Of a stretch of DNA of 64,000 nucleotides, positions 2,998 through 42,436 are shown piece after piece (the first letter of the stretch is position 1; the number at the start of each line of letters is the position of its first letter). The notes beneath the pieces were generated by a model. That model was not told the origin of the DNA, ran no database searches, and saw only the letters and a program-made list of their open reading frames with translations. Made by a program: the position numbers and the translations under genes. The DNA comes from an uncultured Clostridia bacterium (GTDB lineage Bacteria; Bacillota; Clostridia; TANB77; CAG-508), in contig CAKPNF010000001.1 in NCBI GenBank assembly GCA_934168305.1, positions 69,923 through 133,922 on the forward strand, in the 5' to 3' direction.

Positions 2998-3717
2998 ATG
3001 TCAGGACATAGCAAATGGCACAACATACAAGCAAAGAAAGGAAAAGCAGACGCAGCAAGAGGAAAAATCTTTACAAAATTAGGAAGAGAACTATTAATAG
3101 CAACAAAAGAAGGTGGACCAGACCCAGCAGGAAACTCAAAATTAAAAGCAGTTATAGCAAAATGTAAAGCAGCAAACATGCCAAACGACACAATAAACAA
3201 CGCAATCAAAAAGGCATCAACAAGTAACGAAAACTATGAAGAAATAGTATATGAAGGATATGGACCAAACGGAGTTGCAGTAATTGTAGAAACATCAACA
3301 GACAACAAAAACAGAACAGCAGCAGACGTAAGACACGTATTTGACAAAGCAGGTGGAAACTTAGGAACAACAGGATGTGTATCATACATGTTTAATAAAA
3401 AAGGTGTAATAGTAATAGAAAAAGCATCAACAGAAATGTCAGAAGACGATGTAATGATGCTAGCACTAGATGCAGGAGCAGAAGACTTCTCAGCAGACGA
3501 AGAAGTATATGAAATAACAACAGAACCTTCAGATTTCACACAAGTAAGTGAAAAATTAGAAGAAGCTGGATTAGAATTCTTAGAAGCAGGTGTTCAAATG
3601 GTTCCAACTACAACAGTTCAATTAGACGAAAAAGGTGTAGAAAAAATGGAAAGATTAATAGAACGACTAGATGAACTTGATGATGTAGCAAACATCTATC
3701 ATAACTGGGAAGAATAA
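2998..3717 (+). CDS. yebC: YebC/PmpR family DNA-binding transcriptional regulator
   Basis: Start relocated to ATG 2998, preceded by AAAGGAGG. N-terminus [15 protein letters not shown] is diagnostic of the YebC family. The track ORF 2854.. is an unsupported 5' extension. Confidence 0.9.
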
Positions 3718-3718
3718 A

Positions 3719-3834
3719 GAGGGATTGAGGGGCCACCACACAAAATCCCTCTTTTATTTAATTTTTGTATAAAGTAAACATTTTAAATTTTTTATAAAAA
3801 AGAGGGATTTTGTGTGGTGGCCCCTCAATCCCTC
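3719..3834. repeat. palindromic intergenic element, locus 1: two perfectly inverted 33-bp GGGATT..GGGGCCACCAC..AATCCC units around a 50-nt AT spacer
   Basis: 3719-3751 is the exact reverse complement of 3802-3834. The element fills the whole yebC-rlmD intergenic gap. Confidence 0.85.
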
Positions 3835-3849
3835 ATTTAGGAGATATAT

Positions 3850-5217
3850 ATGGGAAAAACACCAGTAGAAAAAAACAAAGAATATATAGTAGAAATAATT
3901 GATAATGGATTTGAAGGAGAAGGAATTGCAAAAATAGACAATTTTACAATTTTTATTAATGGTGCAATAAAAGGAGAAAAAGTAAAAATACTAATTGTAA
4001 AAGTTTTATCATCACATGCATTTGGAAAAATAGTAGAAATACTAGAAAAATCATATGCCAGACAAGAAGTAGACTGCACAACATATAAAAGATGTGGTGG
4101 ATGCAACATGAGACATATAAAATATGAAGATACACTAAAAATGAAACAAAATGCAGTTCAATCATTAGTAAATAAAACACTAAAAAACAAAATTCAAGTC
4201 AAGCCTACACTAGGCATGGAAAATCCATTACATTACAGAAATAAAGCACAATATCCAATAGGTATAAATAAGAATGGAGAGCCAGTAATTGGCGTATTTG
4301 CGAATAGAACACATGAAGTAATAACTATGGAAAAATGCTTAATTCAAAATCCAATATCAGAAGAAATAGCAAAAACAGTATTAGAATTTATAAAGAAAAA
4401 TAAAATTTCAATATATAACGAAAAAACAGTAAAAGGACTATTTAGACACATTGTAATAAAAGTTGGAATAAAAACAAATGAAGTAATGTGTATATTAGTT
4501 ATAAACGGTAACAAAATTCCAAAAGAAGATGAATTAGTAGAAATTCTAACACAAAAATATCCTAATATAAAAACAATAGTAAAAAATATAAATACCAAAA
4601 ACACAAATGTTATATTAGGAAAAGAAAATATCAATATATATGGAAATGGATATATTGAAGATAAATTAGGAGAATATACGTTTAAAATATCACCACTTTC
4701 ATTTTACCAAGTAAACCCTGTACAGGCTGAAAGACTTTACAATATTGGCGTAGAGGCAGCAAAAATAACAAAAAATGATACAGTGTTTGACTTATATTGT
4801 GGTATTGGAACAATTTCATTATTTATGGCAAAACATGCTAAAAAAGTGTATGGAGTTGAAATTGTAGAACAGGCAATTAAAGATGCAAAAGAAAATGCAA
4901 AAATTAATAATGTTGATAATGCTGAATTTATTGCAGGTGATACGGAAATTGTTTTGGATGACCTAATAAATAACAAAAATATTATTCCGGATGTTGTTAT
5001 GATTGACCCTCCAAGAAAAGGGCTTGATAATAAATCTATTGATAATATTTTAAAGATTAAACCTGATAGATTTGTGTATATTAGTTGTAATCCTGCTACT
5101 TTGGTTAGAGATTTGGCTAAATTTGAAGAGGTTTATGATGTTAAAGAGATTCAACCAGTAGATATGTTCCCTTTTACAGGACATGTTGAATGTGTATGTG
5201 TTCTAAATCTTAAATAA
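3850..5217 (+). CDS. rlmD: 23S rRNA (uracil-C5)-methyltransferase RlmD/RumA (TRAM + 4Fe-4S + SAM MTase)
   Basis: 455 aa. TRAM domain N-terminus. Cys cluster CTTYKRCGGCNMRH. C-terminal DPPRKG methyltransferase motif and nucleophile Cys. Confidence 0.85.
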   Translation: MGKTPVEKNKEYIVEIIDNGFEGEGIAKIDNFTIFINGAIKGEKVKILIVKVLSSHAFGKIVEILEKSYARQEVDCTTYKRCGGCNMRHIKYEDTLKMKQNAVQSLVNKTLKNKIQVKPTLGMENPLHYRNKAQYPIGINKNGEPVIGVFANRTHEVITMEKCLIQNPISEEIAKTVLEFIKKNKISIYNEKTVKGLFRHIVIKVGIKTNEVMCILVINGNKIPKEDELVEILTQKYPNIKTIVKNINTKNTNVILGKENINIYGNGYIEDKLGEYTFKISPLSFYQVNPVQAERLYNIGVEAAKITKNDTVFDLYCGIGTISLFMAKHAKKVYGVEIVEQAIKDAKENAKINNVDNAEFIAGDTEIVLDDLINNKNIIPDVVMIDPPRKGLDNKSIDNILKIKPDRFVYISCNPATLVRDLAKFEEVYDVKEIQPVDMFPFTGHVECVCVLNLK

Positions 5218-26978: not shown

Positions 26979-27066
26979 GCGGGATTACGGGGCCAGGACT
27001 CAAAATCCCTCATAAATAATATATAAATATTTATAAGGGATTTTGAGTCCTGGCCCCGTAATCCCT
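26979..27066. repeat. palindromic intergenic element, locus 3 (loop variant GGGGCCAGGACTC). Inverted pair around a 24-nt spacer, followed by a T-tract.
   Basis: 26979-27011 against 27036-27066 gives 29 bp of exact complementarity. TCTTTTTT follows, so it may act as an intrinsic terminator. Confidence 0.8.
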
Positions 27067-40498: not shown

Positions 40499-40531
40499 GA
40501 GGGATTAAGGGGCCACCACACCAAATCCCTC
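40499..40531. repeat. palindromic intergenic element, locus 2: single 33-bp unit (GAGGGATTAAGGGGCCACCACACCAAATCCCTC)
   Basis: 8-bp internal stem GAGGGATT/AATCCCTC. No inverted partner downstream. Confidence 0.75.
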
Positions 40532-40583
40532 CAAAATGAAGAAAATAAAAATTTAGAAACGAAATTAAGAGGAGGTAGATAAA

Positions 40584-40880
40584 ATGCCTAATAAACATCA
40601 AATTCAAAAAGATTTTTATACAAAAATGAGTGAGTGGAAAGAAAACTATAAAGTAAATACAGAGACTCAAAATGAAGAAAATAAAAAAGAAGAACATCAA
40701 AAATTAATATTAAGAGAATCATGTTTTAAAGGAATTGATGGAACAAGAATAGAAAGTATGGCTTTTAAAGATACTCCAGAACATAAATCTATAGTAGAGG
40801 AAGCTAACAAAAGAATTGAAGAAGGCAGAAGAAGAGAAGCAAAAGCTTGGAATGATGCAAAATATTATTTTGGAAGATAA
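40584..40880 (+). CDS. hypothetical 98-aa protein inserted between infB and rbfA, using a duplicated rbfA initiation region
   Basis: The 34 nt GAAATTAAGAGGAGGTAGANAAAATGCCTAATAAA occurs both at 40559-40595 and at 40891-40927 (the rbfA start). Both proteins begin MPNK. Confidence 0.45.
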   Translation: MPNKHQIQKDFYTKMSEWKENYKVNTETQNEENKKEEHQKLILRESCFKGIDGTRIESMAFKDTPEHKSIVEEANKRIEEGRRREAKAWNDAKYYFGR

Positions 40881-40915
40881 AAATATAGAAATGAAATTAA
40901 GAGGAGGTAGACAAA

Positions 40916-41320: not shown

Positions 41321-42314
41321 TTGGACTGTCCCAAATGTCTCAGAAGGGATAAAAATATGACTTTAGATAATATATTAGAAGAAATAAAAAAAGCTGAAAC
41401 AATTGTAATAATGGCACACGAAACACCAGATGGAGATGCGATAGGAAGTTGTTTAGCAATGAAAGTTGCATTAAAACAGTTAGGAAAGAATGCTGATGTA
41501 ATAATAAGAGAAGTTCCAAAAATATTTGATTTCTTACCATATAGAGATGAAATAAAATCTGATTCAGATATTAAAAAATATGATTTAGCAATAAGTTTAG
41601 ATTGTGCAGATTTTAAAAGATTAGTAGGAAGTGAATATTTTGAAAATGCAAAACAAACTATAGTAATAGACCATCATGGAAGTAATAAAATGTATGGTGA
41701 AATCAATTTTGTAAATCCTGTTGCACCAGCATGTTGCCAAATATTGATTGGTATGTTTCAATATTTTAATATAAACATAGATAAAGAATTAGGAACATGC
41801 ATATTAACTGGAATAATTACAGATACAGGTGGATTTAGATATTCAGGAGTAACACCAGAAACATTTGAATTTACAGCAGATTTACTACAAAAAGGAGTAA
41901 ATGTATCAGATATATATAAAAGAGCTTTAGAAACAAAAACAAAAGCTAATTTTGAATTAATGAAAAAAACAATTGACAGAATGGAGTTCTTGGAAGATGG
42001 AAAAGTTACATTTACATATATAACAAATGAAGATTTAGAAGAAGTAAATGCCCGGAATAGGTGACCATGAAGGTTTAGTTGAAACAGGTAGAGATATTGA
42101 AGGTGTTGAAGTTTCAGTATTTATTAGACAAAAAGAAGAACAAGAAAATTTATATAAAATTTCTATGCGTTCAAATGATTATGTTAATGTTTCAGATGTA
42201 TGCTTAATGTTCGGTGGCGGTGGACATGAAAAAGCAGCAGGAGCTGTTATTCAAGGAGATATTGAAACTGTAAAACAAAAAATTATGAATGAATTAAGAA
42301 AAGCTTTAAAATAA
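41321..42314 (+). CDS. nrnA: bifunctional oligoribonuclease/pAp phosphatase NrnA (DHH-DHHA1), interrupted by an apparent 1-nt frameshift at ~42050-42062
   Basis: The 247-aa ORF (DHH motifs HETPDGDAIGS, DHH) and the 88-aa ORF (DHHA1 GGGH) are in adjacent frames and overlap at GCCCGG. Confidence 0.75.
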
Positions 42315-42322
42315 TATTGTAG

Positions 42323-42436
42323 GAGGGATTAAGGGGCCACCACTCCAAATCCCTTTTAATTTAATTATTATTTTATAGTTATATATATTAATTTAATATA
42401 AAGAAAGGGATTTGGAGTGGTGGCCCCTTAATCCCT
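42323..42436. repeat. palindromic intergenic element, locus 4 (loop variant CCACTCC). Inverted pair around a 49-nt AT spacer.
   Basis: 42323-42355 against 42404-42436 is 32/33 complementary. Fills the nrnA-truB gap. Confidence 0.85.

What the first reader, a model, noticed from the sequence alone, without database searches (positions are those of the whole stretch)
3719..3834. New family of 33-bp GGGATT..GGGGCC..AATCCC palindromic units at four intergenic loci (3719, 26979, 40499, 42323)
Each unit is itself a hairpin (GAGGGATT / AATCCCTC around a GGGGCCACCAC-type loop). At three loci, two units are present as perfect or near-perfect inverted copies around an AT-rich spacer, giving potential hairpins of 88-116 nt. 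All four occupy the entire gap between co-directional genes, immediately after a stop codon (yebC, RNase, infB, nrnA). They are the most GC-rich intergenic sequences in the window. I do not recognise them as a named REP, BOX, RUP or MITE family.
Basis: seen in the sequence. Interest (0 to 1): 0.75.

Follow-up and report, generated by a model that had tools for sequence, protein, structure and literature searches.

The report
REPIN-like palindromic repeats in gut Clostridia
The four GC-rich intergenic palindromes are real. They belong to a dispersed family of hairpin repeats (REP/REPIN type) that, in closely related gut Clostridia, flank a single-copy tyrosine (HUH) transposase gene, so this is a new member of a known kind of small mobile DNA.

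Summary
Observation confirmed. The window holds exactly 7 units of consensus GGGATT-NN-GGGGCC-A(CC/GG)AC-N4-AATCCC: three inverted doublets and one single. Each starts 3-10 nt after a stop codon.

The family is not limited to four copies. Seventy-seven of them come from 12 assemblies of uncultured low-GC gut Clostridia, with at least 47-51 units in each of two genomes.

- Doublets always have the AATCCC ends facing inward.
- The two arms co-vary: 24 of 43 doublets have identical arms, against 4.7% of random unit pairs.
- Whole doublets, spacer included, recur at unrelated loci in either orientation.
- There are no target-site duplications.

In relatives that share 85-95% nucleotide identity with the window, a 251-aa Y1/HUH transposase gene is bracketed by two inverted units. 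Its best sequence and fold match is E. coli TnpA-REP (4ER8). The gene keeps one syntenic position down to 40% amino-acid identity, and its flanking unit diverges along with it.

This is a REP/REPIN-RAYT system. More precisely it is the TIRtron/TIRYT type (Y1 subclass 2.1, GGGGWSAS-like motif, C-terminal helical extension), with no GTAG tag. The A-tract/hairpin/T-tract architecture suggests a secondary role as an RNA hairpin or terminator.

Verdict: new member of a known kind, of moderate interest.

The parts
3718..3752 (+). Unit 1a (core 3721-3749, GGGATTGAGGGGCCACCACACAAAATCCC) with the AGA/TCT stem extension; starts 1 nt after the yebC stop codon (3715-3717)
3753..3800 (.). AT-rich spacer of doublet 1 (54 nt between the cores). 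It is 100% identical in the orthologous locus L023 and 84% identical in the non-orthologous doublet L081
3801..3835 (-). Unit 1b (core 3804-3832), a perfect inverted copy of unit 1a; ends 14 nt before the start codon of the TRAM/U5-methyltransferase gene at 3850
26981..27009 (+). Unit 2a, AGGAC variant (GGGATTACGGGGCCAGGACTCAAAATCCC); starts 6 nt after the stop codon of the beta-CASP RNase gene
27010..27036 (.). 27-nt AT-rich, partly palindromic spacer of doublet 2
27037..27065 (-). Unit 2b, a perfect inverted copy of unit 2a; ends 24 nt before the GH15 gene start codon
40498..40532 (+). Single unit 3 (core 40501-40529), 10 nt after the infB stop codon; GGGGCC strand is the sense strand
42325..42353 (+). 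Unit 4a (CTCC variant, the same variant that flanks the transposase gene in relatives); starts 10 nt after the stop codon of the DHHA1 ORF
42354..42406 (.). 53-nt AT-rich spacer of doublet 4. Strains L098/L099 carry a ~202-nt spacer here, and the related species L003 has only a single unit at this locus
42407..42435 (-). Unit 4b, a perfect inverted copy of unit 4a; ends 13 nt before the truB start codon

Best explanation
The units are REP-type palindromic elements, and the inverted doublets are REPIN-type non-autonomous elements. They belong to a system whose enzyme is a single-copy, vertically inherited Y1 (HUH) tyrosine transposase of the RAYT/TIRYT kind.

Shown here:
- The unit is a multicopy extragenic hairpin.
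- Doublets have a fixed geometry and co-varying arms.
- Complete doublets, spacer included, recur at unrelated loci.
- There are no target-site duplications.
- In relatives, the only gene bracketed by two inverted units is a RAYT-like Y1 transposase, and its unit sequence changes as the protein diverges.

Inferred by analogy with IS200/IS605 TnpA and E. coli TnpA-REP:
- The enzyme recognises the folded single-stranded unit. The conserved 'loop' GGGG(C/A)C... is the likely specificity determinant.
- It cuts and rejoins single-stranded DNA at the replication fork, which spreads and maintains the elements.
- Copies persist where they do no harm, at gene 3' ends.

Because the units are transcribed as part of mRNA 3' regions or operon-internal gaps, they probably also act as RNA hairpins (terminator-like or mRNA-stabilising). 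That role is a consequence of where they sit, not their origin.
For: Seventy-seven come from 12 gut Clostridia assemblies, with at least 51 units in CAKPDN and at least 47 in CAYQBQ.

**Doublet geometry and arm co-variation.**
- 43 doublets have the + unit followed by the - unit; only one pair shows the opposite order.
- Arms are identical in 24 of 43 doublets, against 4.7% of random unit pairs.
- There are 63 compensated cells, against a mean of 16 and a maximum of 31 in 1000 shuffles.

**Whole doublets at unrelated loci.** Spacer identity reaches 0.83-0.98 while flank identity stays at background, and both orientations occur, within single genomes. The window's doublet 1 recurs at a non-orthologous locus in another species, L081.

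**No target-site duplication**.

**The transposase gene.**
- The L061 ORF matches Pfam Y1_Tnp at 40.9 bits against a cutoff of 23.
- Its best NCBIfam match is REP_Tyr_transpos at 65.6 bits, against IS200 at 17.5.
- HUH His60/His62 and Tyr120 (YIHxNP) are invariant in 25 homologues.
- The profile's best PDB hit is 4ER8 TnpA-REP, E = 1e-6.
- The AlphaFold2 model has pLDDT 90; its best fold match is 4er8_A at E = 5e-8 and TM 0.73, against about 1e-4 for IS608 and ISDra2.
- The gene is bracketed by inverted units in L061, L085-L092.
- It keeps the same synteny (lepB-holB-PSP1-fdx | RAYT | POR operon) down to 40% identity.
- The unit co-diverges with the protein: GGGGCCACCAC, then GGGGACAGTTC, GGGGGCCAGGTC, GGGGACGCCC and GGGGACGTTC.

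**Genomic context.** 49 elements lie between tandem genes, 19 between convergent genes and 2 between divergent genes, against a background of 375/54/52. The median distance to the upstream stop codon is about 5 nt.

**Strain-level polymorphism at window locus 4**.

**Literature.** TIRtron/TIRYT with the GGGGWSAS motif (PMC3733652); subclass 2.1 with a C-terminal HTH (PMC6006769).
Against: - No transposase gene lies in the window itself. Its presence in the window's own genome is inferred from relatives and from co-occurrence in one metagenome sample.
- The NCBIfam RAYT score is below that model's cutoff (65.6 against 80).
- The GTAG or CGTC tag that is classically diagnostic of REPs is absent.
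- All four window loci are also occupied in the relatives that could be compared. That fits long persistence, but equally fits selection for a host function without current mobility.
- Single units carry an A-tract before and a T-tract after far more often than background (73% and 67%, against 15-20%). That is the architecture of a terminator.
- No transposition event or cleavage has been observed.
Confidence: 0.8

Rival explanations
1. The units are primarily a family of bidirectional intrinsic terminators or mRNA-stabilising hairpins kept by selection at gene 3' ends. On this view the association with the Y1 gene is incidental, or the gene merely sits between two terminators.
For: - Units start a median of about 5 nt after stop codons and are depleted between divergent genes.
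- 73% of single units have an A-tract before the stem and 67% a T-tract after it, against 15-20% in the background.
- The stem-extension pairs (0,30) and (-1,31) co-vary.
- Single units face the same way as the flanking genes in 18 of 24 cases.
- The loci are conserved across species.
Against: - The 13-17 nt 'loop' is the most conserved part of the unit and changes with the transposase lineage. A terminator would not constrain its loop.
- The loop is too long for the consensus terminator scan, which found 0 sites.
- Two loci lie inside the infB-rbfA-nrnA-truB gene row with only 13-54 nt to the next start codon and no room for a promoter, so efficient termination there would silence essential genes (the silencing consequence is inference).
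- Whole doublets with homologous spacers recur at unrelated loci.
- Terminators do not explain the arms-inward-only geometry or the conserved bracketing of one Y1 gene in six lineages.
Confidence: 0.1
2. The doublets are MITEs derived from, and moved by, a classical DDE-type insertion sequence that uses the 29-33 bp unit as its terminal inverted repeat.
For: Each doublet consists of two roughly 30-bp inverted repeats around a non-coding core of 12-204 nt. Several share homologous cores.
Against: - No target-site duplications at any offset or length.
- No DDE transposase was seen between units in about 600 kb of loci. The only bracketed enzyme is a Y1 transposase.
- Single units are as common as doublets, 52 against 43.
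- The unit is itself a hairpin, as in REPs.
Confidence: 0.03
3. The units are host-domesticated binding sites for a DNA-binding protein, for example the C-terminal helix-turn-helix of the Y1 protein or a nucleoid protein. They would organise the chromosome or regulate neighbouring genes and would no longer be mobile.
For: - The transposase is single-copy and syntenic down to 40% identity, as for a housekeeping gene.
- It carries a roughly 100-aa helical C-terminal extension with weak HTH matches.
- The units are conserved at orthologous loci.
Against: - The catalytic HUH motif and Tyr are invariant, which argues for retained nuclease or ligase activity.
- Strain-level replacement of the element at locus 4 and near-identical doublets at different loci argue for recent copying.
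- This reading overlaps with the best explanation more than it excludes it.
Confidence: 0.07

Closest known systems
TIRtron/TIRYT systems (Di Nocera et al. 2013, PMC3733652), equivalent to TnpA-Y1 subclass 2.1 (Quentin et al. 2018, PMC6006769)
   Same: - A Y1 transposase longer than classical RAYTs, with a C-terminal helical or HTH-like extension.
- The gene is bracketed by inverted repeats at about 95-125 nt upstream and 0-17 nt downstream (downstream gap from 17 nt to an overlap with the gene's 3' end).
- The repeats carry a GGGG-W-S-A-S-like motif: GGGGACAG in L088, and GGGGCCAC in the main family.
- The repeats also occur dispersed as singles, dimers and clusters.
- There is no GTAG tag.
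   Different: - The main family has C instead of W at motif position 5.
- The repeat is itself a compact hairpin (stem GGGATT/AATCCC), and it is dense: 7 units per 64 kb here.
- Quentin et al. found no REP-like sequences next to subclass 2.1 genes, and Di Nocera et al. list no Clostridia in their main text (0 occurrences).
- Placement of this protein in subclass 2.1 by phylogeny was not tested.
REP/REPIN-RAYT systems of Gammaproteobacteria (E. coli REP/BIME with TnpA-REP; Pseudomonas REPINs; Bertels & Rainey 2011, PMC3116915; Bertels et al. 2017, PMC5581495)
   Same: - Short extragenic palindromes.
- Inverted doublets that behave as the replicating unit, with co-varying arms.
- A single-copy, vertically inherited Y1 transposase flanked by the repeat.
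- The repeat co-diverges with the enzyme.
- A preference for gene 3' ends.
- The best structural match of the enzyme is 4ER8.
   Different: - No 5' GTAG tag.
- The enzyme is 251 aa with an extra C-terminal domain, against about 165 aa.
- The host is a low-GC (26%) uncultured gut Clostridia lineage.
- The unit has a large conserved internal loop, not a near-perfect stem with a bulge.
IS200/IS605-family transposons (IS608, ISDra2)
   Same: HUH/Tyr catalytic core fold, hairpin-shaped ends, no target-site duplication, and presumably a single-stranded DNA mechanism.
   Different: Here the gene is single-copy and syntenic rather than multicopy. The two ends are identical inverted copies, not distinct left and right ends. 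The short ends on their own are what has multiplied.
Intrinsic (bidirectional) terminators
   Same: A GC-rich 8-bp stem flanked by an A-tract and a T-tract, sitting directly after stop codons.
   Different: The loop is 13-17 nt and strongly sequence-conserved. The elements occur inside an essential gene row and are linked to a transposase.

Membership tests
REP/REPIN-RAYT system | Short (20-40 nt) palindromic unit, extragenic, in many copies per genome | tested here: met
   The window holds 7 units, all intergenic. There are 138 units in 77 loci of 12 assemblies plus the window, with at least 47-51 in each of two genomes, although the scan was truncated. 5 of 95 elements overlap a called ORF.
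REP/REPIN-RAYT system | Inverted doublets (REPINs) with arms that evolve together and are copied as one unit | tested here: met
   43 doublets with fixed geometry. Arms are identical in 24 of 43, against 4.7% of random pairs. 63 compensated cells against 16 in shuffles. Homologous spacers occur at unrelated loci in both orientations.
REP/REPIN-RAYT system | A cognate Y1 (HUH + Tyr) transposase gene, about one per genome, flanked by the repeat in inverted orientation | tested here: met
   Met in relatives only: L061, L085-L092. There is one tblastn hit in about 600 kb of loci and none in the window. The window's own genome could not be searched.
REP/REPIN-RAYT system | Conserved GTAG (or CGTC) tetranucleotide at one end of the unit | tested here: not met
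   Position-frequency table of 128 units: the flanks are (G/A)(A/C) on the 5' side and T(C/T)T on the 3' side, with no GTAG or CGTC.
REP/REPIN-RAYT system | The protein is closer to RAYTs than to IS200-type TnpA | tested here: met
   NCBIfam REP_Tyr_transpos scores 65.6 bits against IS200 at 17.5, but is below its 80-bit cutoff. The only significant PDB profile hit is 4ER8. Foldseek gives 4er8_A at 5e-8, against 6e-5 or weaker for IS608 and ISDra2.
REP/REPIN-RAYT system | No target-site duplication | tested here: met
   Direct-repeat counts at offsets 0-7 and lengths 2-8 lie close to the shuffled expectation, with only scattered small excesses at lengths 2-4 and none at 5 or more; the flanks are often inverted repeats instead.
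REP/REPIN-RAYT system | Mobility or cleavage by the enzyme | not testable with these tools
   Indirect evidence only: multicopy doublets, short- and long-spacer alleles at locus 4 among strains, and a singlet against a doublet at the orthologous locus 4.
TIRtron/TIRYT (TnpA-Y1 subclass 2.1) | Y1 transposase with an added C-terminal HTH-like domain | tested here: inconclusive
   The protein is 251 aa. Residues about 150-250 are all-helical at high pLDDT. The HTH Pfam matches are weak and sub-threshold: HTH_24 in 5 of 25 members, HTH_23 in 3 of 25. There is no Bac_DnaA_C hit.
TIRtron/TIRYT (TnpA-Y1 subclass 2.1) | Flanking inverted repeats that contain GGGGWSAS | tested here: inconclusive
   The main family has GGGGCCAC (7 of 8 positions, C instead of W). 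L088/L089 have GGGGACAG, an exact match. L091 has GGGGACGC and L092 has GGGGACGT, each 7 of 8.
TIRtron/TIRYT (TnpA-Y1 subclass 2.1) | Phylogenetic placement within subclass 2.1 | not tested
Intrinsic terminator | GC-rich stem, loop of 3-8 nt, U-tract | tested here: not met
   The stem and T-tract are present. The loop is 13-17 nt, and the consensus scan found 0 sites at locus 1.
DDE-type MITE | Terminal inverted repeats plus target-site duplication, with a matching IS | tested here: not met
   No target-site duplication. No DDE-type IS with these ends was found in the loci examined.

The most novel reading that the evidence does not exclude
This may be the first dense REPIN-like population driven by a subclass-2.1/TIRYT-type Y1 transposase (the HTH-bearing class reported to lack REP-like repeats), and the first in Firmicutes. 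The system has stayed at one chromosomal position and co-diverged with its repeat across a whole clade of streamlined, 26%-GC gut Clostridia. Its copies now serve as the standard 3'-end or operon-internal RNA hairpins of these genomes. The mirror-symmetric 'onion' layers of truncated units seen in one relative would then mark the enzyme's cleavage and joining point, near GGGATTNNGG^GGCC.
Probability: 0.35. Interest if true: 0.6.

Novelty: new member of a known kind. Interest (0 to 1): 0.4.

Why it matters
REPIN-RAYT systems are discussed as rare examples of vertically inherited, long-lived 'replicators' inside bacterial genomes. They are well documented mainly in Gammaproteobacteria.

A clear case in uncultured, small-genome gut Clostridia broadens that picture. 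It has a transposase of the poorly understood HTH-bearing class, conserved synteny over deep divergence, and visible co-divergence of enzyme and repeat. It also gives a simple sequence pair (enzyme plus 29-nt hairpin) for biochemical study of TIRYT specificity.

There are practical consequences too. The repeats break short-read assemblies of these MAGs, because contigs start and end inside units. They also sit inside essential operons, where they are likely to shape mRNA processing.

Tried and rejected
- **Rfam.** The gathering-score scan of the window found only tRNA-Gln. An E-value scan of five loci with long-spacer doublets gave only sub-threshold miRNA-precursor hits, which are artefacts of long hairpins.
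- **Viral contigs.** 0 matches to the unit, so this is not a phage-borne repeat.
- **Target-site duplications.** None, so a DDE-type MITE is rejected.
- **Consensus terminator scan at locus 1.** 0 sites.
- **phmmer of one RAYT against the PDB.** No hit. A profile of 25 homologues was needed to reach one.
- **Literature search for the unit's sequence strings.** Only unrelated primer or gene matches, plus the GGGGWSAS paper.
- **Linking a specific RAYT to the window's own genome.** Only co-occurrence in the same sample (ERZ27287876) could be shown.
- **Strain-level variation at locus 2.** None among the 2 places shown of the 5 contigs that carry the adjacent protein.
- **attC/integron and CRISPR readings.** Dismissed without testing, because the flanking genes are core housekeeping genes and there is no regular array.
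- **Seven pattern hits in high-GC Methanoregula, Planctomycetes, Verrucomicrobia, Alphaproteobacteria and Acetobacterium.** These are single chance matches without the family's other conserved positions.

Full report
**1. The observation.** The sequences at the four reported places are as described.
- The window contains exactly seven units with the core GGGATT-NN-GGGGCC-A-(CC|GG)-AC-NNNN-AATCCC. They form three inverted doublets (3721/3804, 26981/27037, 42325/42407) and one single unit (40501).
- None is expected by chance: 0 matches in 100 shuffles.
- All seven GGGGCC hexamers of this 26%-GC window lie inside units.
- Looser patterns find no further copies.
- The arms of each window doublet are perfect reverse complements. 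As single strands the doublets fold into 88-118-nt hairpins of -43 to -49 kcal/mol, z = -11.5 to -13.5.
- The upstream genes are YebC, a beta-CASP RNase, IF-2 and a DHH/DHHA1 (nrnA-like) gene. The downstream genes are a TRAM/U5 methyltransferase, a GH15 enzyme, a 98-aa ORF followed by rbfA, and truB.
- Units start 3-10 nt after the stop codon and end 13-54 nt before the next start codon.

- Seventy-seven loci come from 12 assemblies of uncultured low-GC gut Clostridia: Hadza and Nepal MAGs, HGM13651, UMGS1423, 'Clostridium sp. 28_17' and others.
- The seven hits in unrelated high-GC organisms are single chance matches that lack the other conserved positions.
- In the fetched loci alone there are at least 51 units in CAKPDN and at least 47 in CAYQBQ.
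- The window shares 85-95% nucleotide identity with CAYQBQ, CAKPDN and CAADYC in orthologous stretches.
- The window itself is part of ena:ERZ27287477:k141_59842, a 172-kb contig.

**3. Anatomy of the family.** The census covers 138 units.
- There are 43 doublets and 52 singles. Doublets always have the AATCCC ends facing inward. Only one pair shows the reverse order, and one of its members is degenerate.
- Spacers are AT-rich and 12-204 nt long, with modes near 12-28 and 40-58 nt.
- Arms are identical in 24 of 43 doublets, against 4.7% of random unit pairs.
- At the variable positions (7, 8, 16, 17, 20-23) there are 63 cells where both arms carry the same non-consensus base, against a mean of 16 and a maximum of 31 in 1000 shuffles. 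There are 41 mismatched cells, against 135 in shuffles.
- At orthologous loci the arms change together: locus 1 has GA/TC in the window and AA/TT in L029; locus 2 has AC/GT in the window and AT/AT in L057.
- In single units the two base pairs that extend the GGGATT/AATCCC stem co-vary. Pair (0,30) is A-T in 27 and C-G in 10. Pair (-1,31) is G-C in 15, T-A in 9 and A-T in 6. None of 1000 shuffles reaches the observed pairing.
- So both the unit hairpin and the long doublet hairpin are maintained.
- The internal 'loop' GGGGCCA(CC/GG)AC is the most conserved part of the unit (positions 9-14 were fixed by the search pattern, positions 15-19 were not).

**4. Evidence for copying as a unit.** Within single genomes, whole doublets recur at loci whose flanks are unrelated, and in both spacer orientations.
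- A six-member group in CAKPDN has spacer identity 0.81-0.98 (L011, L024, L028, L038, L054, L067).
- Also in CAKPDN there is a three-member group (L009, L055, L058) and two pairs (L005/L044, L022/L050).
- Long-spacer families occur in CAYQBQ (L013/L032/L017) and in CAADYC (L030/L047, flipped).
- Flank identity stays at the AT-rich background of about 0.5 throughout.
- The window's doublet 1 has a non-orthologous copy in CAKPCG, L081: 84% identity over spacer and arms, with unrelated flanks.
- No target-site duplication exists at any offset or length.
- Among strains that carry an identical RbfA, locus 4 has two alleles with the same arms and the same flanks. One has the window's 53-nt spacer. 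The other has a roughly 202-nt spacer homologous to the CAADYC long-spacer family. The short form is a flipped, internally deleted version of the long one.
- In the related species CAADYC, the same locus carries only a single unit.

**5. The enzyme.**
- In CAKPDN (L061), a unit(+) at 1671-1699 and a unit(-) at 2580-2608 bracket one ORF, whose real start is at 1819 (251 aa). The ORF has a Y1_Tnp domain: 40.9 bits against a cutoff of 23.
- Its best NCBIfam match is 'REP-associated tyrosine transposase' at 65.6 bits. That is below the 80-bit cutoff but far above IS200 at 17.5.
- 178 homologues were found, mostly 250-260 aa.
- In an alignment of 25 of them, the HUH histidines (H60, H62) and the Tyr of YIHxNP (Y120) are invariant.
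- A profile of the family hits only E. coli TnpA-REP (4ER8) in the PDB, at E = 1e-6.
- The AlphaFold2 model has pLDDT 90.4. Its best fold match is 4er8_A (E = 5e-8, TM 0.73), ahead of IS608 and ISDra2 TnpA at about 1e-4.
- Residues about 150-250 form an extra helical domain with only weak HTH matches.
- In six lineages, from 100% down to 40% identity, the gene sits in the same place, between the lepB-holB-PSP1-ferredoxin genes and the 2-oxoacid:ferredoxin oxidoreductase operon.
- It is always bracketed by inverted repeats, and the repeat sequence diverges with the protein:

| Locus | RAYT identity | Flanking unit |
|---|---|---|
| L061 / L085 / L087 | 100 / 75 / 81% | GGGATTNNGGGGCCACCACTCC..AATCCC |
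| L088 | 55% | GGGATTAAGGGGACAGTTCTC..AATCCC |
| L090 | 53% | GGGGATTGGGGGCCAGGTCTTCAATCCCC |
| L091 | 43% | TAGGGAAATAAAGGGGACGCCCTTTTCTTCCCTA |
| L092 | 40% | GGGATTTGGGGACGTTCYTTTTNATCCC |

- The window has no such gene. Sample ERZ27287876 holds both a strain of the window species (L099) and a RAYT contig (L085), which is suggestive only.

**6. Context and likely secondary role.**
- Elements lie between tandem genes (49) or convergent genes (19) and almost never between divergent genes (2). The background is 375/54/52.
- Single units have five or more A in the 8 nt before the stem in 73% of cases, and five or more T after it in 67%. The background is 15-20%.
- Single units point the same way as the flanking genes in 18 of 24 cases, binomial p of about 0.02 by my calculation.
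- This is terminator-like architecture. However, the loop is 13-17 nt, is sequence-conserved, and is lineage-specific, and a consensus terminator scan finds nothing.
- Loci 3 and 4 lie inside the infB-rbfA-nrnA-truB gene row with no room for a new promoter. I infer read-through there, with an RNA-hairpin role in mRNA 3'-end protection or processing, as is known for E. coli REPs. This is established knowledge, not tested here.
- The orientation bias is also what a single-stranded DNA, lagging-strand-template mechanism of the IS608 type would give. This is inference.

**7. Comparison with known systems.** The behaviour is that of REP/REPIN-RAYT systems: PMC3116915 and PMC5581495, the latter read.
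- Two classical features differ. There is no GTAG or CGTC tag, and the enzyme is about 90 aa longer.
- Both differences match the 'TIRtron/TIRYT' class of Di Nocera et al. In that class, Y1 genes are flanked by inverted repeats that share GGGGWSAS, and some of the repeats form moderately abundant families of singles, dimers and clusters (PMC3733652).
- Quentin et al. equate that class with TnpA-Y1 subclass 2.1. They describe subclass 2.1 as carrying a C-terminal HTH and as having no REP-like sequences nearby (PMC6006769).
- Here the motif is GGGGCCAC in the main family and GGGGACAG in a sister lineage.
- Bertels et al. note Group 1 RAYTs 'also found in the Clostridia', with low-abundance flanking 16-mers.
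- No paper in the searchable library contains this unit's sequence, and Rfam has no model for it.

**8. Verdict.** The finding is real, is far more than four copies, and is explained. It is a REP/REPIN-type repeat family of a RAYT/TIRYT system in uncultured gut Clostridia: a new member of a known kind.
- Confidence in this explanation is about 0.8.
- A terminator-only reading is about 0.1. A host-domesticated binding-site reading is about 0.07. A DDE-type MITE is about 0.03.
- Interest is 0.4. It is useful to mobile-DNA specialists for four reasons: the Firmicutes host, the HTH-bearing enzyme class, the deep synteny, and the enzyme-repeat co-divergence. It is not a new principle.

**9. Unexplained.** In CAKPDN many doublets are wrapped in mirror-symmetric layers of truncated units.
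- Examples are GGGATTACGG | doublet | CCGTAATCCC, and [GGGATTAAGGGGCCACCACYCGAAA]xn | doublet | the mirrored array.
- Removing the inner doublet leaves a perfect short palindrome.
- This could record excision footprints followed by re-insertion, or hairpin-templated growth of the palindrome.
- It suggests a joining point after G10 of the unit, but nothing here tests that.

Noticed in passing
window 41321-42314: The nrnA-like gene is split into a DHH ORF (41321-42064) and an overlapping DHHA1 ORF in another frame (42048-42314). The same split (235 aa + 88 aa) is called in all 8 assemblies whose contig spans it, of the 10 places that carry the identical RbfA. It is therefore not a sequencing error. 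It may be a genuine two-ORF gene or a programmed frameshift.
   Followed up: partly
window 40540-40915: A 332-bp segment carries a 98-aa ORF (40584-40880) with no Pfam match. It lies between the single unit and rbfA, and is bounded by a roughly 45-nt direct repeat of the rbfA ribosome-binding site and start codon; both ORFs begin MPNK. The segment is present in strains L095/L098/L099, absent in L096/L097 and in CAADYC (L003), and partly deleted in CAYQBQ (L078).
   Followed up: partly
L038:3905-4130; also L024:4035-4175, L011:140-290, L055:7300-7450, L058:5258-5410, L050:1820-1960, L020:3585-3690: Mirror-symmetric 'onion' layers of truncated units surround full doublets in the CAKPDN genome. 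Removing the inner doublet leaves a perfect short palindrome (GGGATTACGG.CCGTAATCCC). The mechanism is unknown.
   Followed up: partly
L098:2909-3170 and L099 (locus 4 of window-species strains); L030:1323-1586, L047:2247-2510; L013:4991-5170, L032:7548-7731, L017:4972-5167: Long-spacer doublets carry a second-level inverted repeat (e.g. TATAGTTATATATATTAAAAT) around a 100-150-nt core with some GC content. These form homologous families in several genomes, and the short/long-spacer polymorphism at window locus 4 belongs to one of them. Rfam gives only spurious miRNA-hairpin hits for these regions.
   Followed up: partly
L100, L101, L104 (contig ends); RAYT hits P0002-P0022 on contigs of about 0.9-1.1 kb: Many short metagenome contigs begin or end inside a unit, and most RAYT genes sit on contigs of about 1 kb, roughly the gene plus its two flanking units. 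The repeat breaks short-read assemblies of these organisms.
   Followed up: partly
L087:1-2420: This contig reads ferredoxin, RAYT, then ferredoxin(-) and PSP1(-), so the upstream genes appear again inverted on the other side of the RAYT. It is either a misassembly across the inverted units or a real inversion about them.
   Followed up: no
L003:5285-5315: At the orthologue of window locus 3, CAADYC carries a shorter variant unit, GGGATTAGGGGACGGGTCTCCAATCCC (GGGGAC type), in place of the GGGGCCACCAC unit. So a different subfamily occupies the same site.
   Followed up: no
L062:678-1493: An acyl-ACP-thioesterase-like gene (240 aa, - strand; identified from its sequence by eye, not checked with any tool) is bracketed by a unit(+) and a unit(-) 787 nt apart, the same geometry as around the RAYT. 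So bracketing alone does not identify the enzyme, and ordinary genes can lie between two units.
   Followed up: no
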